From the NCBI GenBank assembly GCA_963736455.1, contig CAVTON010000001.1, forward strand, positions 778,270-842,269: a stretch of 64,000 nt of DNA, read 5' to 3'. Below, one piece after another: positions 5,604 through 56,238 of the stretch. Under the pieces are notes generated by a model, which saw nothing but the letters and a program-made list of their open reading frames with translations, ran no database searches and was not told the origin of the DNA. Both the position numbers and the translations under genes were made by a program. Each line of letters starts with the position of its first letter. The first letter of the stretch is position 1. The DNA comes from an uncultured Acidobacteriota bacterium. GTDB lineage: Bacteria; Acidobacteriota; Thermoanaerobaculia; UBA5066; Gp7-AA6.

Positions 5604-5609
5604 CCTCCC

Positions 5610-13216: not shown

Positions 13217-13223
13217 AGGCGCG

Positions 13224-36768: not shown

Positions 36769-36799
36769 GCTCGGCGAGCGCCGGAGGGCGCTGGCGCGG

Positions 36800-39343: not shown

Positions 39344-39392
39344 CTCGCCGGCTAGTGTAGCAGAGGCGAAACGAGCGCTAAGCCTCGATGGG

Positions 39393-41906: not shown

Positions 41907-44287
41907 TCTTCCGGTGAGAGCGCTTCCGGCAGGAGCCCCGCCGCCGCCGAGGCCGCGGCGGCCTCCGCAATCGGGCTCTCCTCGCCGGGCTTCAGGAAGA
42001 CGGCTCCGAGCGGCGGCAGCGTCAGCGAGAGGCTGTGCGAACGGCCGTGCGAGGGGACGGGCAGCGCGACCGCGCGGCCCCGGTTGCCCATGCCGCTGCC
42101 GCCGTAGACCTCCGCGTCGCTGTTGAGGATCTCGAGCCAGTCGCCCGCAAAATCCACACCGATCAGGTAGCCCGGGCGCGGAACGGGCGTGAAGTTGAAC
42201 ACGGCGGCAATCCGTTCGCGCGGGCCGCGGCCCCGGCGCTCGAGCGAAACCACGCTGTGATCGGCATCGTGGCAGTCGATCCACTCGAACCCGCGCGGGT
42301 CGAAGTCGAGAGCGTGGAGCGCCGGCTCGGCGGCATAGAGGCGGTTCAGATCGCGCACCCAGAGCTCGAGGCCCGCGTGCCGCGGCTCTCCGAGCAGGCT
42401 CCAGTCGAGGCTCGCGTCGTGGTTCCATTCGTTGCGCTGCCCGAACTCGCCTCCCATGAAGAGAAGCTTCTTGCCGGCCTCCGCCCACATGTAGGCGTAG
42501 AGAAGCCGCAGATTGGCGAACTTCTGCCAGTCGTCGCCCGGCATCTTCGAAAGGAGAGAGCGCTTCAGGTGCACGACCTCGTCGTGCGAGAGGGGCAGCA
42601 CGAAGTTCTCCGAGTACTGGTACATCCGCCGGAAGGTCAGCTCGTTGTGGTGGAACTTCCGGTGGATGGGGTCGAGCTCCATGTAGTCGAGCGTGTCGTT
42701 CATCCAGCCGAGGTCCCACTTCATGTCGAATCCGAGGCCGCCGACGTACGTGGGGCGCGACACCATCGGCCAGGCCGTCGACTCCTCGGCGATCATCAGG
42801 GTGTCGGGGTGACGCTCGCGCACCTCGTCGTTCAGGCGCCGCAGGAGCGAGATCGCCTCGAGGTTCTCCCAGCCGCCGTACCGATTGGGAATCCACTCCC
42901 CCGCCCTGCGCGAATAGTCGAGGTGCAGCATCGAGGCCACGGCGTCCACGCGGAGCCCGTCGGCGTGGTAGACCTCGAGCCAGTAGAGCGCCGACGAGAG
43001 CAGGAAGCTGCGCACCTCGTTGCGCCCGTAGTTGAAGATGCAGCTCGACCAGTCGGGGTGGTAGCCCTGGCGCCAGTCGGCATGCTCGTAGAGATGCGTG
43101 CCGTCGAAATACACCAGGCCGTGCTCGTCGGAGGGAAAGTGCGACGGCACCCAGTCGAGGATCACCCCGAGCCCGGCCTGGTGGAGCGTGTCCACGAGGT
43201 ACATGAAGTCCTGCGGAGTGCCGAAGCGGCCGGTCGGGGCGAAGAAGCCGGTGACCTGGTACCCCCAGGAGCCTGTGAACGGGTGCTCCATCACCGGGAG
43301 AAGCTCGACGTGCGTGAAGCCGAGGTCGAGCGCGTGCTGCGCCAGCGAGCGCGCCGCCTCCCGGTAGGTCAGCGAGCGATTGGCCTCCTCGGGAACGCGG
43401 CGCCAGGATCCGAGGTGCACCTCGTAGATCGAGATCGGCGCCGAGGGCGACTGTCTCGTGGCGCGGGCCGCGGTCCACTTCTCGTCGCGCCAGCGGTACC
43501 CGAGGTCCCAGACGAGCGAGCCCGTCCGCGGAGGCGTCTCCTGCCGCACGGCGTAGGGGTCCGCCTTGTCGACGCGGTACGCGTTCTCGCGCGAGGCGAT
43601 CCGGTACTTGTAGATCGCGCCGCGCTCGACACCCGGAACGAAGGCCTCCCAGATTCCGGAATTGCCGATCGCCTCCAGGGGATGGCGCGCCGCGTCCCAG
43701 CCGTTGAAATCGCCGACGACCGAGATGCTCGCGGCATTCGGCGCGAAGACGGCGAAAGAGGTCCCGGCGACTCCGTCCACGACGCGGAGGTGCGATCCCA
43801 GCCGTTCCCATAGACGGAGGTGCGTACCTTCGTTGAAGAGATGGAGATCCTCGGGAGTGAGCAGTGAGGCGTCGTAACGGGGAGCGCCGGCGTGCGCGAC
43901 CGAACCCTGTCGTCGTCTCTCGGCCAGATCGCCCTCCGTGTCGTCCGGCAGTGTACCGCGGCCATCGGGGATAATGCGCCGCCATGGACGGAACGGCGCT
44001 CGTCGTGTGCGACGGCCTCTTCGCGACCGCCAATGCGAAGACGGCGCACGGCCTCGTGCGCGGCACGGAGCGCTACCGCGTCGTCGGCGTCGTGGACGCG
44101 CCGTCGGCGGGACGGGATGCGGGCGAGGTGCTCGACGGCGTGAAGCGGGGCATTCCGGCCTTCGCCTCGATCGCCGACGCGCTGCGCGCGCTGCCCGGGA
44201 AGCCCGACTTCTGCGTCGTCGGCGTCGCGACCTCGGGCGGCCGCCTGACGCCGGGTCTGCGCGGCCTGATGGCCGAGGCGATCGCAT
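41903..44287 (-). CDS. glgB: 1,4-alpha-glucan branching enzyme (GH13, CBM48 N-terminus); start codon uncertain
   Basis: From about 43890 downward it reads TPEDLHLFNEGTHLRLWERLGSHL...FAVFAPNAASISVVGDFNGWD (CBM48), followed by the GH13 core. The first 130 aa of the ORF are Arg-rich junk overlapping the DUF1611 gene. No ATG/GTG/TTG lies near the homology-predicted N-terminus (CTG at 43925-43927, ATT/ATC at 43970-43975), so the true 5' end is probably about 43900-43930. Confidence 0.8.
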   Translation of the reverse strand: MRSPRPSGRADPASGGRPRSRRRRRRSRASRAARAARRRSRRRPECPASRRRAPRPHPVPPTARPRRRRRGSAPCRARGRAPSSHWRSRRGRRTRRAPFRPWRRIIPDGRGTLPDDTEGDLAERRRQGSVAHAGAPRYDASLLTPEDLHLFNEGTHLRLWERLGSHLRVVDGVAGTSFAVFAPNAASISVVGDFNGWDAARHPLEAIGNSGIWEAFVPGVERGAIYKYRIASRENAYRVDKADPYAVRQETPPRTGSLVWDLGYRWRDEKWTAARATRQSPSAPISIYEVHLGSWRRVPEEANRSLTYREAARSLAQHALDLGFTHVELLPVMEHPFTGSWGYQVTGFFAPTGRFGTPQDFMYLVDTLHQAGLGVILDWVPSHFPSDEHGLVYFDGTHLYEHADWRQGYHPDWSSCIFNYGRNEVRSFLLSSALYWLEVYHADGLRVDAVASMLHLDYSRRAGEWIPNRYGGWENLEAISLLRRLNDEVRERHPDTLMIAEESTAWPMVSRPTYVGGLGFDMKWDLGWMNDTLDYMELDPIHRKFHHNELTFRRMYQYSENFVLPLSHDEVVHLKRSLLSKMPGDDWQKFANLRLLYAYMWAEAGKKLLFMGGEFGQRNEWNHDASLDWSLLGEPRHAGLELWVRDLNRLYAAEPALHALDFDPRGFEWIDCHDADHSVVSLERRGRGPRERIAAVFNFTPVPRPGYLIGVDFAGDWLEILNSDAEVYGGSGMGNRGRAVALPVPSHGRSHSLSLTLPPLGAVFLKPGEESPIAEAAAASAAAGLLPEALSPEE

Positions 44288-45057
44288 CGGGAATGTCGCT
44301 CGTCAACGGCCTTCACGAGTTCCTCTCCGACGATCCGGCGCTCGCCGCCGAGGCCCTGCGCCGGGGAGTCACGATCCGAGACGTCCGCAAGACGCCGCCG
44401 CGCGCGGCGCTCCACTTCTGGAGCGGCGAGATCCTCACCGTGGAGGCGCCCCGCGTCGCCGTGCTCGGCACCGACTGCGCCCTCGGCAAGCGCACGACCG
44501 CGCGCTTTCTCCTGGAGGCCTGCCGCGCGGTCGGCCTGTCGACCGAGCTGATCTACACGGGTCAGACCGGCTGGATGCAGGGGGCGCCGTTCGGCTTCAT
44601 CCTCGATTCGGTTCCGAACGACTTCGTGTCGGGAGAGCTCGAGCACGCGATCGTGTCGTGCTGGAAGGAGCGCCGGCCCGAGCTCATTCTCATCGAAGGA
44701 CAGTCGGCGCTGCGCAACCCGTCGGGGCCGTGCGGATCCGAGATGATTCTCTCCGGCCGCGCCGCCGGCGTCATCCTCCAGCACGCCCCCGGCCGGACGT
44801 TCTACGAAGGCCTCGAAGAGTTCGGCCTCCGCATTCCGCCGGTCTCCGAAGAGATCGACCTGATCCGGCGGCTCGGCGCCCGGACGCTCGCCGTGACGCT
44901 CAACGGCGAGGGCATGACGCCCGAGGACCTGCGAAACGAGCAGCAACGGCTGCGCTGGAAGCTCGGAATTCCGGTCGTCCGGCCGCTCGAGGACGGGGTC
45001 GGCGAGCTGCTTCCGGCCGTCCGAGAATTTCTTGCGAGCGAGGCGAAGGCCTCGTGA
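43984..45057 (+). CDS. DUF1611 domain protein (P-loop-like, partner of dipeptide epimerases)
   Basis: MDGTALVVCDGLFATANAKTAHGLVRGTERYRVVGVVD is the typical DUF1611 N-terminus; 357 aa. Confidence 0.75.
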   Translation: MDGTALVVCDGLFATANAKTAHGLVRGTERYRVVGVVDAPSAGRDAGEVLDGVKRGIPAFASIADALRALPGKPDFCVVGVATSGGRLTPGLRGLMAEAIASGMSLVNGLHEFLSDDPALAAEALRRGVTIRDVRKTPPRAALHFWSGEILTVEAPRVAVLGTDCALGKRTTARFLLEACRAVGLSTELIYTGQTGWMQGAPFGFILDSVPNDFVSGELEHAIVSCWKERRPELILIEGQSALRNPSGPCGSEMILSGRAAGVILQHAPGRTFYEGLEEFGLRIPPVSEEIDLIRRLGARTLAVTLNGEGMTPEDLRNEQQRLRWKLGIPVVRPLEDGVGELLPAVREFLASEAKAS

Positions 45058-46136
45058 AGATCGTCCGCGCCACGAGCCGGCTCGAGGAGTTTCCGCTCAC
45101 GCGCCCCTACGCGATCGCCGGACAGCCGCCCCTCGCGTCGGTCGGCAACGTCTTCGTCCGGATCGAGACGGACTCGGGCCTCGTCGGTCTCGGCGCCGGC
45201 TCGCCCGGGGAGCACGTCACGGGCGAGAACCTGGAGACCTGCCGCGCCGCGCTCTCGGACGGCCGCCTCGACTGGCTCGTCGGCCGCGACGCCCGCGGGT
45301 TTCGCGCGCTTTGCCGCGAGGCGGCCGGACGCACGCCCGGCGCGCCCGCGGCCCGCGCCGCCGTGGACATCGCGCTCCACGACCTCGCCGCCCGCCACCT
45401 CGACCTGCCGCTCGCCGACCTGCTCGGGAGAGCCCACGAGGCGATGCCGACCTCCATCACGATCGGCATCAAGCCGGTCGCGGAAACCCTCGCCGAAGCC
45501 GACGAGTACCTCGGCCGCGGATTCCGCGTCCTGAAGGTGAAGATCGGAGACGCGCTGGACGCCGACATCGAGCGGCTGACGAAGCTGCGCGAGCGAGCCG
45601 GTGCGGGCCCCGCGATCCGCGTGGACGCCAACGTCGGCTACACGATCGAGGAGACCGCCCGCTTCTTCGAACGAACCTCGTCGCTTTCGATCGAGCTCGT
45701 GGAGCAGCCCGTGCCGCGCGAGGCGTTCGAGCAGATCCGGACGCTGACCCCGCGGCGGCGCGCCCGGATCGCCGCCGACGAGAGCCTCCACGACGAGCGG
45801 GACGCGCTGGCGCTCGCCTCGCCGCCCGGCGAACCGGCGTGCGGGATCTACAACATCAAGCTCATGAAGTGCGGCGGCGTCCGGCCGGCGATGCGCATCG
45901 CCGCGATCGCCGAGACCGCGGGCGTCTCCCTGATGTGGGGCTGCATGGACGAGAGCCGCGTTTCGATCGCGGCGGCGCTCCACGCCGCCTTCGCCTCCCC
46001 CGCCACGCGGTTCCTCGACCTCGACGGCTCGCTCGATCTCGCCCGCGACCTCGCGACCGGAGGCTTCACGCTCGAAGACGGCGTGATGCGCACGACCGAG
46101 GCGCCGGGACTGGGGGTCCGGGAGGTCGAATCGTGA
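45054..46136 (+). CDS. Enolase-superfamily dipeptide epimerase (L-Ala-D/L-Glu epimerase-like)
   Basis: GTG start overlapping the DUF1611 stop (GTGA). Metal-ligand blocks IRVDANVGYT ... ELVEQP ... IAADES ... IKLMKCGG (the catalytic Lys); 360 aa. Confidence 0.8.
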   Translation: MKIVRATSRLEEFPLTRPYAIAGQPPLASVGNVFVRIETDSGLVGLGAGSPGEHVTGENLETCRAALSDGRLDWLVGRDARGFRALCREAAGRTPGAPAARAAVDIALHDLAARHLDLPLADLLGRAHEAMPTSITIGIKPVAETLAEADEYLGRGFRVLKVKIGDALDADIERLTKLRERAGAGPAIRVDANVGYTIEETARFFERTSSLSIELVEQPVPREAFEQIRTLTPRRRARIAADESLHDERDALALASPPGEPACGIYNIKLMKCGGVRPAMRIAAIAETAGVSLMWGCMDESRVSIAAALHAAFASPATRFLDLDGSLDLARDLATGGFTLEDGVMRTTEAPGLGVREVES

Positions 46137-46266
46137 CGTCCGGGAAATCCAGGGCGCGGCCGCGGCGTTTCGAATACACTCCGTCGGTCTTGCCGGAGAC
46201 TGCGGACTGATCAATACCAAGCTCGCGAACCGCTACGAGATCCTCGGGGAGCTCGGGCGCGGTGGA

Positions 46267-49200
46267 ATGGGCGTCGTCTACCGCGCCCGCGATCCGCTGC
46301 TGAATCGGGAGGTGGCGGTCAAGCTGATTCCCTCGGCGGACCTGACCCCCGAGCTCGAGGAGCGGTTTCAGCGCGAGGCGCAGCTGGTCGCGCAGATGGA
46401 CCATCCCTCGATCGTTCCGATCTACGACCTCGGACGTCACGAGGGCTCCCTCTTCTTCGTCATGCCGGTGGCGAGCGGCACCAACCTGCTGCGCCTGATC
46501 CGGGACCAGTCCCTGCACCTCGGCGAGGTCGTCGACCTCGGCATTCAGGCCGCCGAAGCGCTCGACTACAGCCACTCGCGGGGCGTCGTGCACCGCGACA
46601 TCAAGCCCGCCAACATCATGGTCACCCGCGACGACGGTGCGAGCGTGCGGGTCCGCGTCATGGATTTCGGCCTCGCCCACTCCTCGACGGAGTCGCGGCT
46701 GACAAAAACGGGCACGCTCGTCGGAACGGTCGCGTACCTTTCGCCGGAGCAGGTCGCCTCGAGGGCCTTCGACGGCCGCTCCGACATCTACTCGCTCGGC
46801 GTCGTGCTCTACGAGTGCCTCATCGGCGAGCCGCCGTTCACCGGCGAGGTGCAATCCATCCTGTACCGCATCGTCCACGAGATTCCTCAGCCGCCGCGGG
46901 CCCTCGGGGCCGAGATCCGGGAGGAGCTGCAGGACATCATCCTGCGCTGCCTGGAAAAGGATGCCGCCCGGCGGCCGCAGAAGGCGGGCCAGGTCGCCGA
47001 CGCCCTGAGGCGCCACAAGTCGAGCCTCGCGACGGACGAGTTCCGGATGTCGGTCGCCCTCTCCGCGAGCCGGACGATCTCGCGGCCGGCCCTCTCGCTG
47101 TTCATCGGGCGCGAGAAGGAGTTCGCGGAGCTGCAGCGCCGCCTGAACGCCGCCCTGTCGGGCGACTGTCAGTTCGCCGTGGTGGCGGGAGAACCGGGAA
47201 TCGGGAAGACGCGCCTCCTCGAGGAGCTCAAGAACCTCGCGCAGGCGCGCAAGATACGCGTTCTCTACGGGAGGTTCGTCGAGCAGGACCGGTCCTTCTC
47301 GTATCAGGGATTCTCCGAGATCATCCAGGATTACTTCCGCTCGCGCGACGCGAACTCGCCGGGAGAGCGGCCCGACTTCTCGGATCTCGCCGCCGACCTG
47401 ATCGCTCTGTTCCCGCAGCTCTCCGAGGTCTCCGAATTGCGCGCCGCCGTCGGCGGCGACTCGCGAATCGCGGTGCCCGCCGCCGAGCGGAAGGTCGAGG
47501 ATCGCATCCAGATCTTCGAGCTGCTCGCCCGGACGATGGCGCGCATCGCTGGCGGCAAGCCCCTCGTCCTCATCCTCGAGAATCTCCACGGGGCCGAGAT
47601 TTCGATCGAGGCCCTGCAGTACGTCGTCCGCCGGCTCGGGCCCACGCCGACGCTGATCGTCGGCAGCTATCGCCAGACCGAAACGGATCGCCGGCACCCG
47701 TTGACGAAGATGCTCGACTCCTTCGTCGACGATCCCCGTTTCGTCTCCCTGACGCTTCCGCCCTTCTCGCCGTCGGAGCATCGGGCCCTGGTCGAGTCGC
47801 TCGTCGGCGCCCCGAGGGTCTCGGACGAGCTGGCTCTCAGGCTGCGCGACGCGACCGAGGGGAATCCCTTCTTCACGAAGGAGCTCATCCGCTCCCTCGT
47901 CGAGTCGGGAGGCATCGCGCGCGACGACACCGGCGGCTGGAGCTTCTCGAAGGAGGCGGAGATCTCGGCCGACGCCCTGCCGGCGACGATCCAGCAGGCC
48001 GTCGAGAAGCGCGTCGAGCGGCTGCCGGAAGAGCTGCGCGACCTTCTCTCGATTGCCTCCGTCCTGGGGAAGTCGTTCGACTCCCGCGACCTCGAGACCA
48101 TGGCCGAAGGAGCGAAGGGAATCGAGGACTCGATCGACCGGCTGATTCTCGAGGGCATCCTGGAGGAGGACCGCGAATCCCGCGGCGACCGGCTGACGTT
48201 CGCCAGCGGCATCGTCCGCGACGTTCTCTACGGAGCCCTCTCGCGCCGGCGGCGGAGGTCCCTCCATCGCAAGTACGCCGAGCTCATCGAGCAGCGCTCG
48301 GCCGGCCGGCTCGAGCGCGTCTACCCGGAGCTCGTCCACCACTACTGGCAGGGCGACGTGCCGGAGAAGACCGTCGACTACGCGTTGAAGCTCGCGCGGA
48401 AGTCGCTCGACACCTTCAACCCGGAAGACGCGATCCGCGTCGCGAAGATCGCGCTCGAATTCCTCGAGGACGAGGACTGGTCGGGGGACGCGTCCCTCGA
48501 GGGCGAGGCGCGCCTGATGCACGCCCAGGGCCTGCGCATGACCGGAAACGTCGACGGCGCCCTGCGCGAGGCGGAGGCCGCCGCGAAGGTGTTCGACGCG
48601 GCCAGACAGCCGGCCCGATCGGTCGCGGCCACCCTGTTCGCCGCCGAGGCCGCGTGGCAGGCGCGCCGGATCGACGACGCCCGGCGCTGGGTCGAGCGGG
48701 GGATCGACGCCGCTCGCTCGGCGAATGAAAACGGCGCCCTCGTCAAGCTGCTGTCTCTCGGGGCGACCGTCGCGAACCTTCGCGGCGAGCACGCGCGAGC
48801 GACGGCGTACCAGGCCGAGATGGGAGCCCTGGCGCCCGGAGAGCCGTCGCCCGGCGAGGAGGAGATTCCGCGCGGCGGCACGCTCATCGTGGCCATGCCG
48901 AGCCCCGTGGCCGCGACCGAGCCGGCGATCTACGACACGACCGAGGAGCACGAAGTCCTCGCCAACGTCTTCGAGACCCTGGTCACCGTCGACCCCCAGG
49001 GAAACCTGGCCCCCCAGCTCTGCGAGCGCTGGACCATGCTGAACGGCGGCGGCGCGATGGAGCTTCACCTGAGGCGAGGCGTTCTCTTCTCGGACGGATC
49101 CGTGCTGAACGCGGCCGCCGCAAAGTCCGCCCTCGAGCGCTCGATCCGGCTGTCGCGCGAAGTCCTGCCGGCCGCGTTCACCGCCGTCGAGGGGGTGGGC

Positions 49201-51885
49201 GACTTTCTCGACGGAAAGGCTCCGGCCGTTTCCGGGATCGAAGCGGCCTCCGACGACGTGCTCCGCATCCGGCTCGTCCATCCCGTACCGATTCTGCCGT
49301 CCCTGCTGACGGACGGCCGCACCGCGATCGCGGCGGCCGGAGCGGGAGGTCCGGGCCCGCCGCTCGGAACGGGCCCCTTCCAGCTCGCCTCGCATTCGCC
49401 CGAGGCGACCGTGCTCGAGCGCAACCCGCGGTACTGGAAACCTCCCGGACCGCCGCTCGACCGCATCGAGTTTCGAGCTTCCATGTCGCCGGCCGAGATC
49501 GCCGAGGGAATCCGGACGGGGCGGATCGACGTCGCCCGCGACCTGCTCCCCCAGGATCTCGAAAGCCTCCTGCGGGAGCCTCGCCTGAGGGGCGGCCTGG
49601 TGGAGACGATCAAGAAGAACGCGTACTTCGCGGTCTTTCACCAGGCGGGCGTGGCGGGCTCGAATCCCGCCCTGCGGGCGGCCCTCGCGGGACTCGCGCG
49701 GACACAGGATTTCGTCTGGGGCGCTCTCGGACGCTTCGCGCTGCCCGCGACGGGCGTCATTCCGCCCGGGATCCTCGGCCATGACCCCGGCCGCCGCCAA
49801 CCTCACCTCCCGCGCGAGAAGGCGCTCGAGATGATTCGCTCGGCGGGCTTCGCGGGACCCGTGCGTTTGCGAGCGGTGATCCATCCCATCCTGCAGAACC
49901 AGTACGCGGCCCTCACGCAGGCGCTCCTGCGCCTGTGGTCCGACGTGGGCGTCGAGGTCGAGGTGGCGACGACGGCCATGCCCGCCTACCTCGACGCCTG
50001 GAACGCCGCCTCGGGCGTCGACCTGCTCATCGGACGCTGGATCGCCGACTACGACGACCCGGACAACTTCACGCACAACCTCTTCCATTCGGTCAACGGC
50101 CGGCTGCGGACATACTTCTCCTCTCCGGAGATGGACCAGCTGCTCGAAGAAGCCCGCGCCGAGCCTCGGTCCGCCGCGCGCGAGACCCTGTACCGGAGAA
50201 TCGAGCACAGCCTTCTCGATCCGGGAATCCTCATCCCTCTCTTCCACGACGTCGCCTACCGCATCGCGAGCCCGGCCGTCCGAGGAATTCAGCTGCACAC
50301 GACCGCGCCCTACGTCAACTACGCCGAACTCGGGAAGGCCTCGGCGGCGCCCGCGGCGGAAGCGCCGGAACACGGGATCGGGGGCGGGGTCCTGCACGTC
50401 CCGATCCAGGGGGTCGTCCGCAGCCTCGACATCTCGTTGACGAGCACCGTCGAGCAGGCCGACGTTCTGCCGAGCATCTTCGAGACGCTGACCTGGGCCA
50501 TCGAAGGAACCCGCATCGTGCCCTGGCTCGCCTCGGAGGTCCTCATGGAGAACGGAGGCTCGCGCTTCCGGATCCGCCTCCAGTCGGGTGTGCGATTCCA
50601 TGACGGGCGCCGGCTCACGGCTCGCGATGTCCGCCACTCCTGGGAGCGCCTGCTCCTGAGTCCGGCGAGCGAGAGCCGCTACGTCCTCTCGGTCATCCGG
50701 GGCGCCGGGCGCCTCCTCGACGCAACGGCCTCGGACCTCGCCGGGTTCCACATCCTGTCGCCGACGGAATTCGTGGTGGATCTCGACAACCCGGTCCCCT
50801 TCTTCCCGGCGATGATCTCGTACGCCGCCACGGCCATCGTTCCGGAAGGAACCGCGGCGATCGGCCCGAGCGTCCGCGAGGGCGCCATCGGCACCGGCGC
50901 CTTCCGAGTCGTCAGCTTCGAGCCGGGCCGGCGCCTCGAGCTCGAGCGCAACCCCCATTACTGGCGCGCCGACCGCCCGCGCGCCGACGGCGTAGTCTTC
51001 CACCTCGGTCTGCCGCCCGAAGAGGTTCGCAACGAGTTCCTGGCCGGCCGGCTCTCGATCGCGCGCGACCTGCTTCCGGCCGACGCGGAGGCCTTTCGTC
51101 ACGATCCGCGGTTCGCTTCCGGCTATCGCGAGAGCCCTCGCCTCACGACGTACATCGTGACGTTCAGCACCCGCCGCGGTCCGCTGCGCGACGCCGAGGC
51201 ACGCCGCGGCGTGCTTCGAGCGCTCAAGACGGCCGGGCTCGTGCGCCGCACCCTCGGACGCCTGGCGATCCCGGCGCACGGCCTGATTCCGCCGGGCCTT
51301 CTCGGCTACTCGGCCAGCCCGCCGGATTCCGGCCGGCGCGCGGCCGGCGACTCGTCCCCCTCGGACAGCTCGGTCGAGGCCACGGTCTCGCGCGAGACCG
51401 TCGACCTGGCGGCCGCGGTGCACCCGATCTTCTTCGGCGAGTTCGCGAATTACTTCAAGGAGCTCAATGAGGCGTTCCGGGAGATCGGCTATCGCCTCCG
51501 GCCGGCCAACCAGACCATGGCCGAATACCTCAAGCTCTCCGATGCGGGTGATGCGGACGTCGACGTCGGCCGCTGGACGGCGGACTACCCGGATACGGAC
51601 ACGTTCGCGTTCGGCTGCCTCCACACCTCGTCGGGGGCGTACCGGAATTACCTCGGGTCACCGGAGCTCGATCGCCTCGCGGAACGGGGGCGCGTCGAGA
51701 TCGACCCGCGCGTGCGGCACTCGGTGTACCGGCAGGTCGAGGAGCTGATCGCGCGGGACGCTCTCATGCTGCCGCTCTTCCACGATCAGGTCTATTGCTT
51801 CGCTCGGCCCGAGCTCCAGGGCCTGACCACGATCGGCCAGTCGAACGCCGTCATCCCCTACGAAGACCTCTGGATCCGGCGCTGA
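46267..51885 (+). CDS. Multidomain Ser/Thr protein kinase - STAND/AAA ATPase - TPR-like region - 2x SBP_bac_5 (OppA/DppA-like solute-binding) domains (1872 aa; true start probably about 60 nt upstream)
   Basis: Kinase: GRGGMGVVYRARD...AVKLI...HRDIKPANIMV...DFGLA...GTVAYLSPE. Walker A: VVAGEPGIGKTRLLEEL. SBP5 #1 from about 48875 (GGTLIVAMPS...MELHLRRGVLFSDGSVLNAAAAKSALERSI). SBP5 #2 from about 50383 (FRIRLQSGVRFHDGRRLTARDVRHSWERLL). The upstream in-frame sequence INTKLANRYEILGELGR (46210-46266) continues the kinase N-terminus but contains no ATG/GTG/TTG (only CTG at 46207). Confidence 0.8.
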   Translation: MGVVYRARDPLLNREVAVKLIPSADLTPELEERFQREAQLVAQMDHPSIVPIYDLGRHEGSLFFVMPVASGTNLLRLIRDQSLHLGEVVDLGIQAAEALDYSHSRGVVHRDIKPANIMVTRDDGASVRVRVMDFGLAHSSTESRLTKTGTLVGTVAYLSPEQVASRAFDGRSDIYSLGVVLYECLIGEPPFTGEVQSILYRIVHEIPQPPRALGAEIREELQDIILRCLEKDAARRPQKAGQVADALRRHKSSLATDEFRMSVALSASRTISRPALSLFIGREKEFAELQRRLNAALSGDCQFAVVAGEPGIGKTRLLEELKNLAQARKIRVLYGRFVEQDRSFSYQGFSEIIQDYFRSRDANSPGERPDFSDLAADLIALFPQLSEVSELRAAVGGDSRIAVPAAERKVEDRIQIFELLARTMARIAGGKPLVLILENLHGAEISIEALQYVVRRLGPTPTLIVGSYRQTETDRRHPLTKMLDSFVDDPRFVSLTLPPFSPSEHRALVESLVGAPRVSDELALRLRDATEGNPFFTKELIRSLVESGGIARDDTGGWSFSKEAEISADALPATIQQAVEKRVERLPEELRDLLSIASVLGKSFDSRDLETMAEGAKGIEDSIDRLILEGILEEDRESRGDRLTFASGIVRDVLYGALSRRRRRSLHRKYAELIEQRSAGRLERVYPELVHHYWQGDVPEKTVDYALKLARKSLDTFNPEDAIRVAKIALEFLEDEDWSGDASLEGEARLMHAQGLRMTGNVDGALREAEAAAKVFDAARQPARSVAATLFAAEAAWQARRIDDARRWVERGIDAARSANENGALVKLLSLGATVANLRGEHARATAYQAEMGALAPGEPSPGEEEIPRGGTLIVAMPSPVAATEPAIYDTTEEHEVLANVFETLVTVDPQGNLAPQLCERWTMLNGGGAMELHLRRGVLFSDGSVLNAAAAKSALERSIRLSREVLPAAFTAVEGVGDFLDGKAPAVSGIEAASDDVLRIRLVHPVPILPSLLTDGRTAIAAAGAGGPGPPLGTGPFQLASHSPEATVLERNPRYWKPPGPPLDRIEFRASMSPAEIAEGIRTGRIDVARDLLPQDLESLLREPRLRGGLVETIKKNAYFAVFHQAGVAGSNPALRAALAGLARTQDFVWGALGRFALPATGVIPPGILGHDPGRRQPHLPREKALEMIRSAGFAGPVRLRAVIHPILQNQYAALTQALLRLWSDVGVEVEVATTAMPAYLDAWNAASGVDLLIGRWIADYDDPDNFTHNLFHSVNGRLRTYFSSPEMDQLLEEARAEPRSAARETLYRRIEHSLLDPGILIPLFHDVAYRIASPAVRGIQLHTTAPYVNYAELGKASAAPAAEAPEHGIGGGVLHVPIQGVVRSLDISLTSTVEQADVLPSIFETLTWAIEGTRIVPWLASEVLMENGGSRFRIRLQSGVRFHDGRRLTARDVRHSWERLLLSPASESRYVLSVIRGAGRLLDATASDLAGFHILSPTEFVVDLDNPVPFFPAMISYAATAIVPEGTAAIGPSVREGAIGTGAFRVVSFEPGRRLELERNPHYWRADRPRADGVVFHLGLPPEEVRNEFLAGRLSIARDLLPADAEAFRHDPRFASGYRESPRLTTYIVTFSTRRGPLRDAEARRGVLRALKTAGLVRRTLGRLAIPAHGLIPPGLLGYSASPPDSGRRAAGDSSPSDSSVEATVSRETVDLAAAVHPIFFGEFANYFKELNEAFREIGYRLRPANQTMAEYLKLSDAGDADVDVGRWTADYPDTDTFAFGCLHTSSGAYRNYLGSPELDRLAERGRVEIDPRVRHSVYRQVEELIARDALMLPLFHDQVYCFARPELQGLTTIGQSNAVIPYEDLWIRR

Positions 51886-51897
51886 GAGGCGGCGAGG

Positions 51898-54471
51898 CTA
51901 GTCCGGAGAGGTCCCGCTCCGGATCCGCAGCGATCCCTCCTCGACCCAGTGGGCGAGCACTCGGCGGATGCGGTAGGAGTCGCTCGCCACGACCGCCTCG
52001 CAATCGACCGGGGTCGCGCCCTGGCTCACCCGCTCCCAGAGCGCCTGCAGAACGCTGCCGTCCTTCTCGCCGGGGAACGGAGTGGCCGCAACCCCCGTCC
52101 GCTCCAGCCGGACCGCGTCGGGCACCAGCACGGCGGCCTCCTGGAATTCGTCGTACCGGCGCATCGCCTCGAGGGTGAGCGGAAGAACCTCGCGGACCGC
52201 TTCCGCCGACGGGGGCGGCTCGCCTTTGACGAAGCTGAACTGGCCCGGAACGGGTTTTTCGAAGAGCTGGTAGAAGGCGTTTTCGCCCTGCAGGTGTCCG
52301 CGGCGGATGTCTGTCAGCTTTCCTCCGCGCAGTGCGATGCGGGCGAAGACGTCGCCGCCTTTCGGCCCTCGCAGCGTCAACGACCCGGAGGCGGAAGACT
52401 CGGCCAGGCTCTGCAGCAACGCGGGCAGGCCGAACACCTCGAGATCGCCCTGGAGGCTCGCGGCGGAGGCTTCGGGCGCTCCCGGAGCGGCCGGGACGGT
52501 CTCGGCGGCGGCGGGCTCCGCGGGCTTTGGCCGATCGAACCCCGAGAGCGCTTTCTTTGCGGCGCGTCCCGCGTCCTGCGCGCCGAACCGCGAGGCCATT
52601 TCCTCGAGCGCACGGCGGACGGAGGGCGCCGGCGTGCTCGCCAGCGCTTCTACGATGCGCACCAGGTTCTGATCGTTCTGCCGCAGCGTCATGCCGAGAA
52701 GCTTGAACGGGAGATTCGCCTTCAGGAGCGCGAGCAGCTGGTCGACGGTCTCGGTGTCCTCCGACATGTCCTGCCCGCCGAGCTCGGAGAGCCGCGCGAC
52801 CGTGTCCCCGAGCTGGGGCTGCTTGCGCCCGGCGTGGTCGATGAGCGCCCGGCGGGCTCGCGGGGCGGGAAGCTTGCCGAGCGTCGCGGCGACCCGGTCG
52901 AGCAGGGCCCGCAGGTCCTTGGCCTCGTACGGCGCGCCCTCGGGCTCGGCGAGCATGCCCTCGAGCTCGAAGAGCATCTGGGTCAGACCCTGCTCGGCGC
53001 GTTCGTCCTTGTACTGGGCGAGGGTCGCAACGGCTTCCTTGACCAGGACGAGGGGCAGGCCGAGCTGCGCGTGGCGCAGGACCACGTCGCTCTCTTCCTC
53101 GAAAGAGGCCTCGGGACTCTTCGGGATGCGGCGCAGGAGGTAAACGAGGTTGCGGCGGTAGAACCACTCCTCGTCGTCGACGGCCCGGGAAGGAACCCGG
53201 CTCAGCTCATGGTAGGCGGTCGCGCGGGCCGCCGCACCGTGGACCTCGAGCAACGCGAGGATCAGCCGGCGGCGGTCGCGCTTCTGCTCGCGGCGCAGCT
53301 CCTCGAGCAGGCCCTCCGGGCGAAAGGCGGTGAAGAACTGGAGGACCTTGCGCAGCAGCGAGTGCTGCTCCGGTTTCTCGGTGAACTTGCGCAGCTGCTC
53401 GCCGTCGAGCGTGTCTCCGAGCCGCCGGCGGACCAGCTCGACCGTTCCCGCATCCACCTTCTTCTCCGACGTCAGCCGGTCGGCGAGCTCGAGCATCGAG
53501 ACGGCCTGGGGGAGCGAGCCTTCGTTGAAGCGATCGATGCCCGCCCGGACCATCTCCTGGAAGCGCTTCCCGGCCTCGACGGGATCCTCGGCGTCGGCGA
53601 TGATGCGCCGCATCGCGCCGAGCGCCCCGGACTCGGGGACGGATGGCGCGCCCGCGGCGGAGGGCAAGGCCGGCATCACCCAGCCCGGGAGGGTCTGCGA
53701 GAGCGCCCGGAAGATGCTGTCGGTTCCCGCCTCGAGGCCCATCTGCTTCAGACGCGCGAGGTGCGCTTCGAGCTCCCCGGCCGAATGCGCGCTGCGTGCC
53801 GCGAAGGCCAGGGCCTCGCTCGCGCCGGGAGCGAGGGGGACGGGCGCGCCCGCGGGGACGACCGAGCCGAGCGCGGAGGCCGGAGCCGCCGCTCCCCCGG
53901 CCGGCCTCGCGAGGCCGCCCTGCGCCTCCAGGCGCTCCAGCACCAGGGAAAAGCGATGCAGCGTGTCGGCCTGCGTCTCTGCCGAGCCGGACGGCGCGGC
54001 GGAGCCCGCCGCGGCGGCGGAGGCGCTCGAGCGAGGCCCGCTGCCTTCGGTCGGCGCCTGTCGAAAGATGTTCTGAGCCTGGGAGATCGATGCCGGAGCT
54101 TCTCCGAGCCGCCCGAGGTTCTCGAGAAGCATCGCCCGGTCCTCCGCCGGGCACAACTGGAGGATCAGCGGACGCAGACCCGCCAGATAGGCCTCCAGGG
54201 GCTCGCGGGGCACGAGCCGGAACTCCGCCATCATCTGGATCTTCTTGAGCGTGTGGAACAGGTAGTCGGACACCGGAACGGCCGCGGCGCTGCCCCTCCG
54301 ATACTGCGCGCCCGTCCACGCCCGGATCGCGTCGGCGACGACGTCGGGCGGATATTTCATGAGCAGCTGCACCGAGTCCGCCACGATCAGGGGCGCGACC
54401 GCATCGGACAGGTACTGCTGCAGCTCGATCAGAGCCTCCTGCAGCTCCGGATTGGGCGGCTGGGCCGACAA
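51898..54471 (-). CDS. Large hypothetical protein with C-terminal DUF4388-like domain
   Basis: 857 aa; low-complexity Ala/Pro-rich middle; C-terminus GDLEVFGLPALLQSLAESSASGSLTLRGPKGGDVFARIALRGGKLTDI...GENAFYQLFEKPVPGQFSF matches the DUF4388 pattern. Confidence 0.5.
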   Translation of the reverse strand: MSAQPPNPELQEALIELQQYLSDAVAPLIVADSVQLLMKYPPDVVADAIRAWTGAQYRRGSAAAVPVSDYLFHTLKKIQMMAEFRLVPREPLEAYLAGLRPLILQLCPAEDRAMLLENLGRLGEAPASISQAQNIFRQAPTEGSGPRSSASAAAAGSAAPSGSAETQADTLHRFSLVLERLEAQGGLARPAGGAAAPASALGSVVPAGAPVPLAPGASEALAFAARSAHSAGELEAHLARLKQMGLEAGTDSIFRALSQTLPGWVMPALPSAAGAPSVPESGALGAMRRIIADAEDPVEAGKRFQEMVRAGIDRFNEGSLPQAVSMLELADRLTSEKKVDAGTVELVRRRLGDTLDGEQLRKFTEKPEQHSLLRKVLQFFTAFRPEGLLEELRREQKRDRRRLILALLEVHGAAARATAYHELSRVPSRAVDDEEWFYRRNLVYLLRRIPKSPEASFEEESDVVLRHAQLGLPLVLVKEAVATLAQYKDERAEQGLTQMLFELEGMLAEPEGAPYEAKDLRALLDRVAATLGKLPAPRARRALIDHAGRKQPQLGDTVARLSELGGQDMSEDTETVDQLLALLKANLPFKLLGMTLRQNDQNLVRIVEALASTPAPSVRRALEEMASRFGAQDAGRAAKKALSGFDRPKPAEPAAAETVPAAPGAPEASAASLQGDLEVFGLPALLQSLAESSASGSLTLRGPKGGDVFARIALRGGKLTDIRRGHLQGENAFYQLFEKPVPGQFSFVKGEPPPSAEAVREVLPLTLEAMRRYDEFQEAAVLVPDAVRLERTGVAATPFPGEKDGSVLQALWERVSQGATPVDCEAVVASDSYRIRRVLAHWVEEGSLRIRSGTSPD

Positions 54472-54567
54472 GCTCTCTCCGTGTCTCTTCTTAGTCTAAC
54501 TCAAAGAGAGCGAAGAAGATAGACGTCGAACCGGAAATCGAAGCCGGACGCAGCGGCCCGCGGAAGT

Positions 54568-55650: not shown

Positions 55651-55784
55651 GAATCCTCCGGGGCGCCCGGGTCGGGGCGCCGTAATTCCGGTTACGCCCC
55701 ATGGGGAGAAAGGTTCCCGGATTTCTGGCGATCGGAGCCATCCGGGAAACCTTTCGGGCGGGCATGCGTACCTGAGACCGAAAG

Positions 55785-55816
55785 GCTAAAAAATTCGCAC
55801 ATGCTAATTTTTTAGC
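55785..55816. promoter_or_regulatory. AT-rich dyad (candidate BlaI-family operator) upstream of blaI
   Basis: GCTAAAAAATT-cgcacatgct-AATTTTTTAGC: 11-bp perfect inverted arms around a CATG-centred core, 29 nt upstream of the blaI ATG, in a genome that is about 70% GC. Confidence 0.45.
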
Positions 55817-55844
55817 AGTAAGCTTTGGACGGAGGGCCCGCCGG

Positions 55845-56237
55845 ATGGCCGCGAAAAAGCCCGTCTCCAACTTCTCGCGCCGGGAACGCCAGATCATGGA
55901 AGTGCTCTACCGCGACCGCCAGGCCACGGCGGGCGAGGTGCTCGAACGCCTTCCGGATCCCCCGGGTTACTCGGCCGTCCGCGCCCTGCTCCGCATCCTC
56001 GAGAACAAGGGGCACGTCCGCCACCAGATCGACGGAAACCGGTACGTCTACGAGCCGCGCCTGACCCGCGAGCGCGCGGGACGGCCCGCCCTCGCGGGCG
56101 TGATCGAAACGTTCTTCGACGGCTCGACCGAAAAGGCCGTGGCCGCCCTGCTCGACCTTTCCCGCGCCGACCTCTCGGAAGCCGACTTCGACCGCCTGTC
56201 CGATCTGATCGAACGGGCTCGACTGGAGGGACGCTGA
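55845..56237 (+). CDS. blaI: BlaI/MecI/CopY-family transcriptional repressor
   Basis: SRRERQIMEVLYRDRQATAGEVLERLPDPPGYSAVRALLRILENKGHVRHQIDGNRYVYEP winged-helix penicillinase-repressor signature; 130 aa; GGAGGG RBS. Confidence 0.85.
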   Translation: MAAKKPVSNFSRRERQIMEVLYRDRQATAGEVLERLPDPPGYSAVRALLRILENKGHVRHQIDGNRYVYEPRLTRERAGRPALAGVIETFFDGSTEKAVAALLDLSRADLSEADFDRLSDLIERARLEGR

Positions 56238-56238
56238 C

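What the first reader, a model, noticed from the sequence alone, without database searches (positions are those of the whole stretch)
46267..51885. 1872-aa Ser/Thr kinase fused to a STAND/AAA ATPase, a TPR-like region and two tandem SBP_bac_5 (OppA/DppA-type) solute-binding domains, with no evident transmembrane segment
The kinase-AAA-TPR arrangement resembles PknK/MalT-like STAND regulators, but the usual C-terminal HTH is replaced by two roughly 500-aa periplasmic-type oligopeptide/nickel-binding-protein folds. Both retain the RF/KFHDG...DV..S.ER block. With no signal peptide or TM helix, these would be cytoplasmic ligand sensors (peptide or opine-like?) gating a kinase. I am not aware of a characterised example of this fusion.
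Basis: partly seen in the sequence, partly recalled or inferred. Interest (0 to 1): 0.65.

Follow-up and report, generated by a model that had tools for sequence, protein, structure and literature searches.

The report
Cytoplasmic kinase with two OppA-like sensors
This is one intact gene for a large cytoplasmic signalling protein (a Ser/Thr kinase, an ATP-driven switch, and two peptide-transporter-type binding domains) from a large, unstudied protein family of soil Acidobacteriota, and the binding domains most likely sense a small molecule inside the cell.

Summary
One uninterrupted coding ORF encodes a Hanks-type Ser/Thr kinase, an AAA_16 STAND nucleotide-binding oligomerisation domain (NOD) with arm, a TPR-like helical repeat, and two complete SBP_bac_5 (OppA/MppA-like) domains. 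It has no signal peptide and no transmembrane helix.

Three corrections:
- The real start is almost certainly CTG 46207, giving 1892 aa.
- Only the second SBP keeps the exact FHDG...DV..S.ER block.
- PknK-type kinases have no C-terminal HTH, so the SBPs are an addition, not a replacement.

The protein is not a one-off. Hundreds of full-length relatives exist, including 635 50%-identity clusters at E<1e-30 and 295 loci in GTDB species genomes. All named sources are Acidobacteriota, mostly Thermoanaerobaculia. Copies often sit in tandem, and all are auto-annotated "ABC transporter substrate-binding protein". I found no paper describing the fusion.

Best reading (inferred, not shown): a ligand-gated STAND kinase. 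Ligand capture by the cytoplasmic SBP pair releases the NOD, the protein oligomerises, and the kinase trans-autophosphorylates. The ligand is unknown; a peptide-like molecule is the leading guess. The link to the adjacent DUF1611/epimerase genes is weak, and an anti-phage role is unlikely.

Verdict: a new variant of a known kind, of moderate interest.

The parts
46195..46199 (+). Shine-Dalgarno-like GGAGA, 7 nt upstream of the proposed start
   Evidence: Sequence read directly. Similar GGAG motifs sit upstream of the equivalent codon in orthologues.
46207..46209 (+). Proposed CTG start codon; the protein is then 1892 aa
   Evidence: There is no ATG/GTG/TTG between the upstream stop (46084-86) and the ATG at 46267. 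Homologues begin M/V/L-I-x-T-K-L-A-N-RYE at exactly this codon. Over 85 gene copies this codon is ATG 24, TTG 19, CTG 18, GTG 17.
46207..47061 (+). Hanks-type Ser/Thr kinase domain, residues 1-285 (Gly loop 17-22, K39, HRD 129-131, DFG 153-155, activation-loop T166/T168/T170, SPE 179-181)
   Evidence: Pfam Pkinase E 1e-46. K39, HRD and DFG are conserved in 45-46 of 46 diverse representatives. Activation-loop threonines are invariant in 66 close sequences. Foldseek best hits are PknB, Stk1 and PknA.
47101..47658 (+). STAND NOD P-loop NTPase (AAA_16), residues 299-484; Walker A GEPGIGKT 328-335, Walker B LVLILEN 453-459
   Evidence: Pfam AAA_16 E 1e-20. Walker A G/G/GK is conserved in 45-46 of 46; Walker B is hhhhE[D/N] with E in 42 of 46.
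47659..48276 (+). Helical and winged-helix 'arm' region of the STAND core, residues 485-690
   Evidence: AF2 secondary structure shows helices plus beta-hairpins at 570-580 and 652-665. The whole model (residues 1-890) aligns to the PH0952 STAND (6mfv) over 652 columns; the tool does not give the query range, so attribution to this region is inferred.
48277..48846 (+). TPR-like helical-repeat domain, residues 691-880
   Evidence: AF2 predicts nine antiparallel helices at pLDDT 86-96. Pfam hits are sub-threshold only: TPR_MalT E 0.005, TPR_16 E 0.007.
48874..50331 (+). SBP_bac_5 domain 1, residues 890-1375; WxADY Asp is D1281 (nt 50047-50049)
   Evidence: Pfam SBP_bac_5. PDB phmmer gives 8upi 3e-30, with OppA and MppA over query 6-483. 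AF2 pLDDT is about 85 and Foldseek returns full-length SBPs.
50332..50379 (+). Ala/Pro-rich disordered linker between the two SBP domains
   Evidence: AF2 pLDDT is below 50 for model residues 478-507.
50380..51882 (+). SBP_bac_5 domain 2, residues 1392-1892; exact FHDG..DV..S.ER block 1464-1481; WxADY Asp is D1793 (nt 51583-51585)
   Evidence: PDB phmmer gives 8upi 2e-34, OppA 4e-23 and MppA 7e-23. D1793 aligns to OppA D419. It is 32% identical to SBP1.
51307..51393 (+). Ser/Thr-rich disordered insertion inside SBP2, residues 1701-1729
   Evidence: AF2 pLDDT is below 50 at model residues 817-845. SDSSVEATVSRETV is conserved in close homologues but not in distant ones.
43984..45057 (+). Upstream co-directional gene: DUF1611 (DgcN-like) protein
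   Evidence: Pfam DUF1611_N and DUF1611. NCBIfam DgcN scores 116 bits, below its 480-bit cutoff.
45054..46136 (+). Upstream co-directional gene: enolase-superfamily racemase/epimerase (MR_MLE). Its GTG overlaps the DUF1611 stop (GTGA), and it ends 70 bp before the kinase start.
   Evidence: Pfam MR_MLE_N and MR_MLE_C. Best NCBIfam hits are L-Ala-D/L-Glu epimerase and DgcA, both below cutoff. Overlap read directly.

Best explanation
The gene encodes a soluble, cytoplasmic, ligand-gated STAND Ser/Thr kinase.

Shown:
- The protein has an N-terminal catalytically competent Hanks kinase (the effector), a MalT/PH0952-type NOD with arm, a short TPR-like repeat, and a C-terminal tandem of two complete cluster-C solute-binding (Venus-flytrap) domains.
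- The two SBP domains arose by internal duplication.
- There is no export signal.

Inferred:
- At rest the NOD holds ADP, and the C-terminal module keeps it closed.
- A small cytoplasmic ligand is captured in one or both SBP clefts. A peptide or amino-acid-derived molecule with a free amino group is the leading guess, because both domains keep the Asp that binds the peptide alpha-amino group in OppA.
- Flytrap closure is transmitted through the TPR-like coupler and arm.
- The NOD exchanges ADP for ATP and multimerises, which brings kinase domains together. They trans-autophosphorylate on the conserved activation-loop threonines and then phosphorylate unidentified targets.
- The family's many paralogues, which diverge mainly in the C-terminal half, would give Thermoanaerobaculia a set of such sensors with different ligand specificities.
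For: Architecture and integrity:
- The domain order is established.
- More than 100 colinear full-length homologues exist.

Active kinase:
- K39, HRD and DFG are conserved in 45-46 of 46 diverse representatives.
- Activation-loop T166/T168/T170 are invariant in 66 close sequences.

Functional P-loop switch:
- Walker A is conserved in 45-46 of 46, and the Walker B glutamate is present in 42 of 46.
- The fold matches the PH0952 STAND-TPR structure over 652 columns.
- STAND kinases such as PknK are placed in the MalT subfamily, whose activation is inducer-dependent multimerisation (PMC4381067; PMC6468293).

Cytoplasmic location:
- No hydrophobic segment exceeds 1.30.
- The N-terminus is the kinase itself.

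SBPs look ligand-competent:
- Both are full three-subdomain folds.
- The OppA D419 equivalent is kept in the window protein in both domains, and in 36 of 46 (SBP1) and 35 of 46 (SBP2) diverse relatives.

Sensor-like evolution:
- Over 64 gene copies, kinase, NOD and arm are 82-84% identical to the window protein.
- TPR-like, SBP1 and SBP2 are 66-67% identical.

Precedents:
- SgrR/DsvR is an HTH plus cytoplasmic SBP_bac5 sensor (PMC13060122).
- In the PknG-GlnX-GlnH system a solute-binding protein controls a TPR-bearing Ser/Thr kinase in trans (PMC8546545).
Against: - No experiment or covariation test links SBP occupancy to kinase activity. The ligand and the substrates are unknown.
- The relative orientation of the two SBPs and their contact with the TPR/NOD are not predicted with confidence (pTM 0.52 in both models).
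- The OppA-type Asp is absent in about 22-24% of diverse relatives.
- OppA R413 and H371, which hold the peptide carboxylate, are not conserved. A classical oligopeptide is therefore not assured.
- Walker B is E-N rather than the usual D-D/E.
- In MalT-type STANDs the helical-repeat domain is itself the inducer-binding sensor, so the TPR-like region could be the sensor here and the SBPs could do something else.
- There is no conserved partner gene across paralogues.
Confidence: 0.6

Rival explanations
1. Specific-pathway version: the protein senses a D-amino-acid-containing dipeptide or murein-derived peptide, or D-Glu or N-acetyl-Glu. It would regulate, or be co-regulated with, the adjacent DUF1611 (DgcN-like) and MR_MLE (L-Ala-D/L-Glu-epimerase or DgcA-like) genes.
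For: - In the window the three genes are co-directional, with a GTGA overlap, then a 70-bp gap with no terminator-like site on the coding strand.
- The DUF1611 and MR_MLE pair lies upstream of the orthologous kinase in about 20 loci.
- The murein-peptide binder MppA is among the best PDB matches of both SBPs.
Against: - In most relatives an ~800-aa HerA-like gene on the opposite strand separates MR_MLE from the kinase, so there is no conserved operon.
- The same synteny block also keeps glycogen genes, PatA_N, DUF4097 and BlaR. Adjacency therefore reflects recent common ancestry, not selection for linkage.
- More distant paralogues sit in unrelated contexts.
- NCBIfam scores for DgcN, DgcA and the epimerase are far below their cutoffs.
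Confidence: 0.12
2. Conflict or immunity reading: an NLR/Avs-like STAND in which the SBP pair recognises a phage-derived peptide or protein. The kinase (and SIR2 in rare relatives) would be the abortive-infection effector.
For: - The layout is the tripartite effector, NOD, sensor arrangement.
- The kinase domain hits PADLOC kinase models: PD-T4-6 1e-88, mad6 9e-75.
- Four relatives have an N-terminal SIR2_2 domain.
- In relatives a HerA-like neighbour hits mad8 (1e-12) and HerA models.
- Copies are tandemly amplified and the C-terminal half evolves faster.
Against: - PADLOC hits cover only the generic kinase domain. Nothing matches the NOD or the sensor.
- The locus is syntenic across MAGs from 55% to 93% identity, amid housekeeping genes for glycogen metabolism.
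- The SIR2 variants also lie next to trp and che genes, not defence islands.
- The family appears confined to one phylum, with no sign of mobility.
- The HerA-like gene is absent from the window.
Confidence: 0.08
3. The SBP domains are not small-molecule sensors. They would be structural oligomerisation or scaffold modules, or docking sites that grip peptide termini or loops of protein substrates, while the TPR-like domain does the sensing as in MalT and PH0952.
For: - In MalT-type STANDs the helical-repeat domain binds the inducer (PMC4381067, PMC6468293).
- The OppA carboxylate-binding residues are not kept, and the Asp is lost in about a quarter of relatives.
- SBP2 carries a conserved Ser/Thr-rich disordered insertion that could be a phospho-regulatory element.
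Against: - Both domains keep the complete two-lobe-plus-hinge fold over about 500 residues each across more than 100 divergent clusters. That is costly to maintain for a mere scaffold.
- The TPR-like part, at about 190 residues, looks shorter than I recall typical MalT-type sensor domains to be (recalled, not measured here).
- Single-SBP forms of 1350-1390 aa exist, as expected for a modular sensor.
Confidence: 0.15
4. Artefact: an assembly chimera or an undetected frameshift has joined a kinase gene to one or two transporter SBP genes.
For: The closest genome locus, L007, does contain frameshifts in the NOD/arm region.
Against: - The window ORF is uninterrupted with uniform GC3.
- The same 1870-1930-aa arrangement is found in hundreds of independent assemblies from NCBI, ENA, JGI and Logan.
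- There is no signal peptide, lipobox or start context at the SBP junctions.
Confidence: 0.01

Closest known systems
PknK of Mycobacterium tuberculosis (STAND-type Ser/Thr kinase, MalT subfamily)
   Same: N-terminal Hanks kinase followed by an AAA_16 NOD and a helical-repeat region. Soluble and cytoplasmic. Classed as a STAND alongside MalT (PMC4381067).
   Different: To my knowledge PknK ends after the helical repeats and has no SBP domains (recalled, not tested here). No direct sequence comparison with PknK was made.
MalT (E. coli) and PH0952 (Pyrococcus horikoshii, PDB 6mfv) STAND ATPases
   Same: The NOD, arm and helical-repeat organisation is shared. The Foldseek match to 6mfv spans 652 columns at E 2e-12. 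The expected mechanism is an inducer-triggered ADP-to-ATP switch and multimerisation.
   Different: The effector is a kinase at the N-terminus, not a C-terminal DNA-binding domain. About 1000 extra residues of SBP folds follow the repeats. Sequence similarity is too low for phmmer against the PDB. Walker B is E-N.
SgrR and DsvR transcription factors (HTH plus cytoplasmic SBP_bac_5 domain)
   Same: A periplasmic-type family-5 solute-binding fold is used inside the cytoplasm as the input domain of a regulator (PMC13060122). There is a weak NCBIfam SgrR hit to SBP2.
   Different: The output is a kinase reached through a STAND switch, not an HTH. There are two SBPs in tandem. No SgrR_N domain is present.
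PknG-GlnX-GlnH system of Actinobacteria
   Same: A solute-binding protein reports nutrient (amino acid) availability to a TPR-bearing Ser/Thr kinase (PMC8546545).
   Different: GlnH is a separate extracytoplasmic SBP that signals through the membrane protein GlnX. Here the SBPs are family 5, fused in cis, and cytoplasmic. PknG is not described as having a NOD.
OppA, MppA, DppA and other cluster-C ABC-transporter binding proteins (e.g. PDB 8upi, 1b05, 3o9p)
   Same: Full-length fold match for both domains (TM 0.75-0.84 to the target). The W-x-A-D-Y Asp equivalent to OppA D419 is conserved.
   Different: There is no signal peptide or lipobox and no adjacent ABC permease or ATPase genes. Identity is only 20-22%. 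OppA R413 and H371 are not conserved. SBP2 has a Ser-rich insertion.

Membership tests
Hanks-type (eukaryotic-like) Ser/Thr protein kinases | Gly-rich loop, VAIK lysine, HRD catalytic loop, DFG motif, activation loop and APE-like motif | tested here: met
   GRGGMG 17-22 is complete only with the CTG-start extension. K39, H129-R-D131 and D153-F-G155 are conserved in 45-46 of 46 representatives, and SPE is at 179-181.
STAND NTPases (MalT clade, AAA_16) | P-loop NTPase with Walker A GxxxxGK[T/S] and Walker B hhhhD[D/E] | tested here: inconclusive
   Walker A GEPGIGKT is intact, with G/G/GK conserved in 45-46 of 46. Walker B reads LVLILEN: Glu is present in 42 of 46, and the second position is D in 21 and N in 13 of 46. 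This is a variant, and its hydrolytic competence is unknown.
STAND NTPases (MalT clade, AAA_16) | NOD followed by winged-helix/arm and a C-terminal sensor; tripartite effector, NOD, sensor layout | tested here: met
   Pfam AAA_16 at E 1e-20. AF2 predicts helices and hairpins over 485-690 and repeats over 691-880. The 6mfv alignment spans 652 columns.
STAND NTPases (MalT clade, AAA_16) | Inducer-dependent ADP/ATP exchange and multimerisation | not testable with these tools
   Needs biochemistry (SEC-MALS or cryo-EM with and without ligand and nucleotide).
Cluster-C solute-binding proteins (Pfam SBP_bac_5) as a fold | Bilobed, three-subdomain Venus-flytrap fold of about 500 residues | tested here: met
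   Both domains qualify: Pfam E 1e-96 for two stretches, PDB phmmer full-length alignments, and Foldseek TMt 0.75-0.84.
ABC-transporter substrate-binding proteins (functional class) | Export signal (Sec/Tat signal peptide or lipobox) placing the protein outside the cytoplasm | tested here: not met
   The N-terminus is a kinase. There is no hydrophobic segment above 1.30, and the junctions have no signal-like sequence.
ABC-transporter substrate-binding proteins (functional class) | Genomic association with cognate ABC permease and ATPase genes | tested here: not met
   No ABC transporter genes flank the gene in the window or in related loci.
Oligopeptide/dipeptide-binding subgroup (OppA, DppA, MppA) | Asp that salt-bridges the ligand's alpha-amino group (OppA D419), plus basic residues for the carboxylate (OppA R413, H371) | tested here: inconclusive
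   The Asp is kept as D1281 and D1793, in 36 and 35 of 46 relatives. R413 aligns to Val and H371 to Phe in SBP2. The OppA residue roles are recalled from the literature, not re-derived here.
SgrR-family regulators | N-terminal winged-helix DNA-binding domain (SgrR_N) fused to SBP_bac_5 | tested here: not met
   No HTH or SgrR_N hit in Pfam. Only a 19.8-bit NCBIfam SgrR hit within SBP2.
Antiviral STAND (Avs/NLR-like) defence systems | Match to defence-system NOD or sensor models, and location in variable defence islands | tested here: not met
   PADLOC hits are limited to residues 1-290, the kinase. The locus sits in a conserved syntenic housekeeping context.

The most novel reading that the evidence does not exclude
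The tandem OppA-like module is a pattern-recognition device of an NLR-like conflict system. Cytoplasmic Venus-flytrap domains would capture a phage- or competitor-derived peptide, and the STAND core would then assemble a kinase (or, in rare relatives, SIR2 plus kinase) effector hub. That would be a new sensor class for bacterial innate immunity. The less exotic but still new alternative, a lineage-specific array of intracellular peptide- or metabolite-gated STAND kinases, is the best explanation above.
Probability: 0.08. Interest if true: 0.8.

Novelty: new variant of a known kind. Interest (0 to 1): 0.5.

Why it matters
STAND-type Ser/Thr kinases such as PknK are widespread, yet what switches them on is largely unknown. 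This family attaches the best-understood ligand-binding fold in bacteria, the OppA-type Venus flytrap, directly to such a kinase.

That makes the input experimentally accessible. Isolated SBP domains can be screened for ligands, and the full-length protein can be tested for ligand-induced oligomerisation and autophosphorylation.

The family is large, with hundreds of 50%-identity clusters and two or three copies per genome. It is confined, as far as seen here, to poorly studied soil Acidobacteriota (Thermoanaerobaculia, and at least one Vicinamibacteria hit). It probably forms a substantial part of how these organisms read their internal nutrient state.

There is also an annotation problem. 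These proteins are currently named "ABC transporter substrate-binding protein", which would inflate transporter counts in metagenome surveys.

Tried and rejected
- **Frameshift or chimera.** Rejected: the ORF is continuous and hundreds of colinear homologues exist.
- **TM helix or signal peptide.** None found by hydropathy.
- **Operon with DUF1611 and MR_MLE.** Synteny was examined in 78 loci. The pair is conserved only within the orthologue block and is usually separated from the kinase by an opposite-strand gene, so it was not adopted as the main explanation.
- **Recurrent neighbours of distant paralogues.** Neighbour clustering plus Pfam gave DUF502, FG-GAP, seryl-tRNA synthetase, DUF885 and a TonB-type receptor. 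There is no coherent theme beyond occasional peptide-metabolism genes.
- **Defence system.** PADLOC matches only the kinase domain, and the SIR2-fused relatives are not in defence islands.
- **Sequence search of the NOD-TPR region against the PDB.** No hit at E<=1. Only fold comparison found PH0952.
- **Taxonomy of distant cluster representatives.** The listing of cluster members gave no organism names. Taxonomy came instead.
- **Promoter, terminator and Rfam scans around the gene.** Nothing informative.
- **Literature searches for the fusion.** I tried SBP_bac_5 with Pkinase; Thermoanaerobaculia with protein kinase; Hanks-type with solute-binding; and OppA-like cytoplasmic sensor kinase. No description was found.
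- **Ligand identity from pocket residues.** This could not be settled.
Full report

The window is about 70% G+C, so long spurious ORFs occur in every frame. The + strand ORF 46267..51885 nevertheless carries the coding signature of this genome, with GC1/GC2/GC3 of 0.71/0.48/0.89. It translates without interruption to 1872 aa.

Pfam finds four things:
- Pkinase, E 1e-46
- AAA_16, E 1e-20
- SBP_bac_5, E 1e-96, in two stretches
- no other significant domain

Each C-terminal half of about 500 residues aligns nearly end to end with solved cluster-C binding proteins. The matches are 8upi, 5u4o, OppA and MppA, at E 1e-22 to 1e-34.

The highest 19-residue Kyte-Doolittle mean is 1.30, and it lies inside the kinase fold, so there is no transmembrane helix or signal peptide.

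**2.

*Start codon.*
- The ATG at 46267 lies inside the glycine-rich loop, and the Pfam match begins at profile position 13.
- The frame stays open upstream to 46087 and encodes ...GLINTKLANRYEILGELGRGG-M. This stretch contains no ATG, GTG or TTG.
- Homologues begin M/V/L-I-x-T-K-L-A-N-R-Y-E, which corresponds exactly to CTG 46207.
- Across 85 gene copies in fetched loci this codon is ATG 24, TTG 19, CTG 18 and GTG 17.
- In the window's orthologue group CTG is the rule, and several copies have no canonical in-frame start upstream. A GGAG-type motif sits 7-10 nt before the codon.
- The protein is therefore most likely 1892 aa, initiated at CTG. All residue numbers below use this numbering.

*Quoted motif.* SBP2 has the exact VRFHDG...DVRHSWER block. 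SBP1 has only LFSDG...AAKSALER.

*TPR-like region.*
- By sequence it is below threshold (TPR_MalT E 0.005).
- The AF2 model predicts nine antiparallel helices for residues about 691-880 at pLDDT 86-96.
- The whole model's Foldseek match to the PH0952 STAND-with-TPR structure, 6mfv, spans 652 columns at E 2e-12. The tool does not report which query residues align, so placing the match on the NOD-arm-repeat block is my reading.
- phmmer of that block against the PDB found nothing.

**3. Anatomy**

| Residues | Region | Key features |
|---|---|---|
| 1-285 | Hanks kinase | K39, HRD 129-131, DFG 153-155 |
| 299-484 | NOD | Walker A GEPGIGKT, Walker B LVLILEN |
| 485-690 | Arm and winged-helix region | helices plus beta-hairpins |
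| 691-880 | TPR-like repeats | nine helices |
| 890-1375 | SBP1 | WxADY Asp D1281 |
| 1376-1391 | Linker | Ala/Pro-rich, disordered |
| 1392-1892 | SBP2 | WxADY Asp D1793 |

- K39, HRD and DFG are conserved in 45-46 of 46 diverse family representatives. Activation-loop T166, T168 and T170 are invariant in 66 close sequences.
- Walker A glycines and lysine are conserved in 45-46 of 46. The Walker B glutamate is present in 42 of 46.
- The AF2 model of residues 885-1892 has mean pLDDT 83. It shows two well-folded domains joined by a disordered linker, but pTM is 0.52, so their mutual orientation is not defined.
- Foldseek against the PDB returns full-length peptide, murein-peptide, nickel and opine binders, with TM normalised to the target of 0.75-0.84.
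- SBP1 and SBP2 are 32% identical to each other (E 2e-77), against about 20-22% to any solved SBP. They therefore arose by internal duplication.
- Forms of 1350-1390 aa with a single SBP exist, usually SBP2-like.
- Both domains keep the W-x-A-D-Y aspartate that aligns with OppA D419, the residue I recall as binding the peptide alpha-amino group. It is present in 36 of 46 (SBP1) and 35 of 46 (SBP2) diverse relatives. OppA R413 and H371 are not conserved.
- SBP2 contains a disordered Ser/Thr-rich insertion at 1701-1729, where SBP1 has a helix.

**4. Relatives**

- *Main protein search.* All 120 best hits were colinear, 67-86% identical, carried the same Pfam set, and were named "ABC transporter substrate-binding protein". 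Every hit with an organism name came from Thermoanaerobaculia or Acidobacteriota MAGs.
- *HMMER scan of 1.84 billion cluster representatives, using the double-SBP region.* It found 635 clusters at E<1e-30. More than 60 of the best 150 were proteins of 1800-1960 aa with the match at about 890-1890.
- *GTDB species-genome scan.* It found 295 relatives. All 72 listed loci are Acidobacteriota or Thermoanaerobaculia MAGs, and the closest is 93% identical.
- *Search from a distant member.* It added a Vicinamibacteria hit.
- *Variants.* Rare forms carry an N-terminal SIR2_2 domain (P0164, P0248, P0275, P0276). About 2150-aa forms carry extra kinase-like hits.
- *Copy number.* Genomes hold several copies, with two or three in tandem at the orthologous locus and others elsewhere.

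**5. Context**

The orthologous locus reads as follows:
- GlgP, GH57 and GlgB, leftward
- DUF1611 and MR_MLE, rightward
- usually an ~800-aa HerA-like gene, leftward
- one to three kinase-SBP genes, rightward
- PatA_N and DUF4097, leftward
- BlaI and BlaR, rightward

In the window the HerA-like gene is absent. DUF1611 and MR_MLE overlap by GTGA and then lie 70 bp upstream of the kinase. No terminator-like site on the coding strand, no promoter and no RNA family was detected there.

The entire block is conserved among close genomes, including unrelated genes, and distant paralogues sit in unrelated neighbourhoods. One of these lies next to OPT, an amino-acid permease, DUF885 and an M2 peptidase. 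Adjacency is therefore weak evidence for a functional link.

**6. How it most likely works**

The layout of effector, NOD-arm, repeats and C-terminal input is that of STAND ATPases. In those proteins an inducer bound by the sensor relieves autoinhibition, ADP is exchanged for ATP, and the protein multimerises (PMC4381067; PMC6468293). PknK is cited there as the kinase example.

I infer the following steps:
1. The tandem SBP module is the input.
2. Flytrap closure on a cytoplasmic ligand is relayed through the TPR-like coupler.
3. Multimerisation brings the kinase domains together for trans-autophosphorylation on the conserved activation-loop threonines.

Support:
- All catalytic and P-loop residues are intact.
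- Both SBPs keep the complete fold across a very divergent family.
- Divergence follows a sensor-like pattern. Kinase, NOD and arm are 82-84% identical to the window protein, against 66-67% for TPR-like, SBP1 and SBP2, as means over 64 gene copies.
- There are two precedents. SgrR/DsvR uses a cytoplasmic SBP_bac5 as a regulator input (PMC13060122). In PknG-GlnX-GlnH a solute-binding protein controls a TPR-bearing kinase in trans (PMC8546545).

What is shown is the architecture, its integrity, its cytoplasmic location, its conservation and its distribution. What is inferred is the gating, the ligand class and the oligomerisation. I put this explanation at about 0.6.

**7. Rivals**

| Rival | Probability | Main reason for the weighting |
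|---|---|---|
| Dedicated sensor of the DUF1611/epimerase pathway (D-amino-acid dipeptides or murein peptides) | 0.12 | Linkage is not conserved as an operon |
| NLR/Avs-like defence | 0.08 | Only generic kinase hits in PADLOC, a stable housekeeping locus, and SIR2 variants not in defence islands |
| SBPs as scaffold or substrate-docking modules, with the TPR as sensor | 0.15 | Not excluded |
| Assembly artefact | 0.01 | Refuted by the colinear homologues |

**8. Novelty**

No paper describing this fusion was found. Each component and the STAND-kinase logic are known, and a cytoplasmic SBP_bac_5 sensor has a precedent.

I therefore classify the finding as a new variant of a known kind. It is a member of a large, uncharacterised, mis-annotated Acidobacteriota family. 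Interest is moderate at 0.5, because the family offers a tractable system for asking what activates STAND kinases.

Noticed in passing
window 46195-46269; loci L001, L007, L017, L032, L033 and others: A conserved non-canonical CTG start. The codon equivalent to 46207 is CTG in 18 of 85 gene copies, and in most of the window's orthologue group. Several copies have no canonical in-frame start upstream, and a GGAG-like motif lies 7-10 nt before the codon. Gene callers therefore truncate many family members to 'MGVVYRARD...'.
   Followed up: partly
window 51307-51393 (protein residues 1701-1729): A Ser/Thr-rich insertion inside SBP2 (SASPPDSGRRAAGDSSPSDSSVEATVSRE), predicted disordered by AF2. It sits where SBP1 has a helix. 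SDSSVEATVSRETV is conserved among close homologues only. It may be a phospho-regulatory element.
   Followed up: partly
window 43984-46136: A DUF1611 (DgcN-like) gene and an enolase-superfamily racemase/epimerase gene are translationally coupled by a GTGA overlap at 45054-45057. The best NCBIfam hits (L-Ala-D/L-Glu epimerase, DgcA, DgcN) are all well below cutoff, so their substrate is uncertain.
   Followed up: partly
L001 7612-10002 (-), L003 7560-9962 (-), L008 4867-7395 (-); absent from the window between 46136 and 46207: Most relatives have an ~800-aa HerA-like ATPase gene (PADLOC mad8 1e-12, HerA 1e-8) on the opposite strand between the epimerase and the kinase. The window, L014 and L021 lack it, which points to a lineage-specific deletion or insertion.
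   Followed up: partly
L003, L009, L014, L017, L019, L021, L028, L032, L036 (two copies); L018 (three copies): The kinase-SBP gene is tandemly duplicated or triplicated at the orthologous locus in many MAGs. The second copy is about 79% (N-terminal half) and 65% (SBP half) identical to the window protein. The window has a single copy, followed 12 bp later by the convergent PatA_N gene.
   Followed up: yes
P0164, P0248, P0275, P0276; loci L079, L080: Rare relatives of about 2180 aa carry an N-terminal SIR2_2 domain ahead of the kinase, NOD and two SBPs. Their neighbourhoods are housekeeping (trp operon, cheB/R/D, amino-acid permease), not defence islands. Forms of about 2150 aa with extra ABC1/APH-like kinase hits also exist (P0277-P0282).
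   Followed up: partly
L007 7346-13024: The closest genome locus (93% identical; MAG CAVTYD010000002.1) has several frameshifts and two in-frame stops in the NOD/arm region. These are either sequencing or assembly indel errors or a pseudogene.
   Followed up: no
window 35254-43798 (- strand): A glycogen/alpha-glucan gene cluster lies divergently upstream and is syntenic in relatives. It comprises GH77 4-alpha-glucanotransferase, a GlgP-like phosphorylase with DUF3417, GH57 with DUF3536, and a GlgB-like branching enzyme.
   Followed up: no
window 51898-58602: The downstream conserved neighbours are an 857-aa PatA_N/DUF4388 protein (convergent), a DUF4097 'toastrack' protein, and a BlaR1-type M56 peptidase with TPRs, which relatives pair with a BlaI-like repressor. 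The PatA_N gene follows the kinase in 21 loci and could be a partner or substrate.
   Followed up: partly
window 3-15458: Two large DUF2298 membrane proteins (one fused to PMT_2 and NHL repeats, 1640 aa), another PMT_2-type glycosyltransferase and an NAD-dependent epimerase/dehydratase. This looks like a glycosylation or envelope gene cluster.
   Followed up: no
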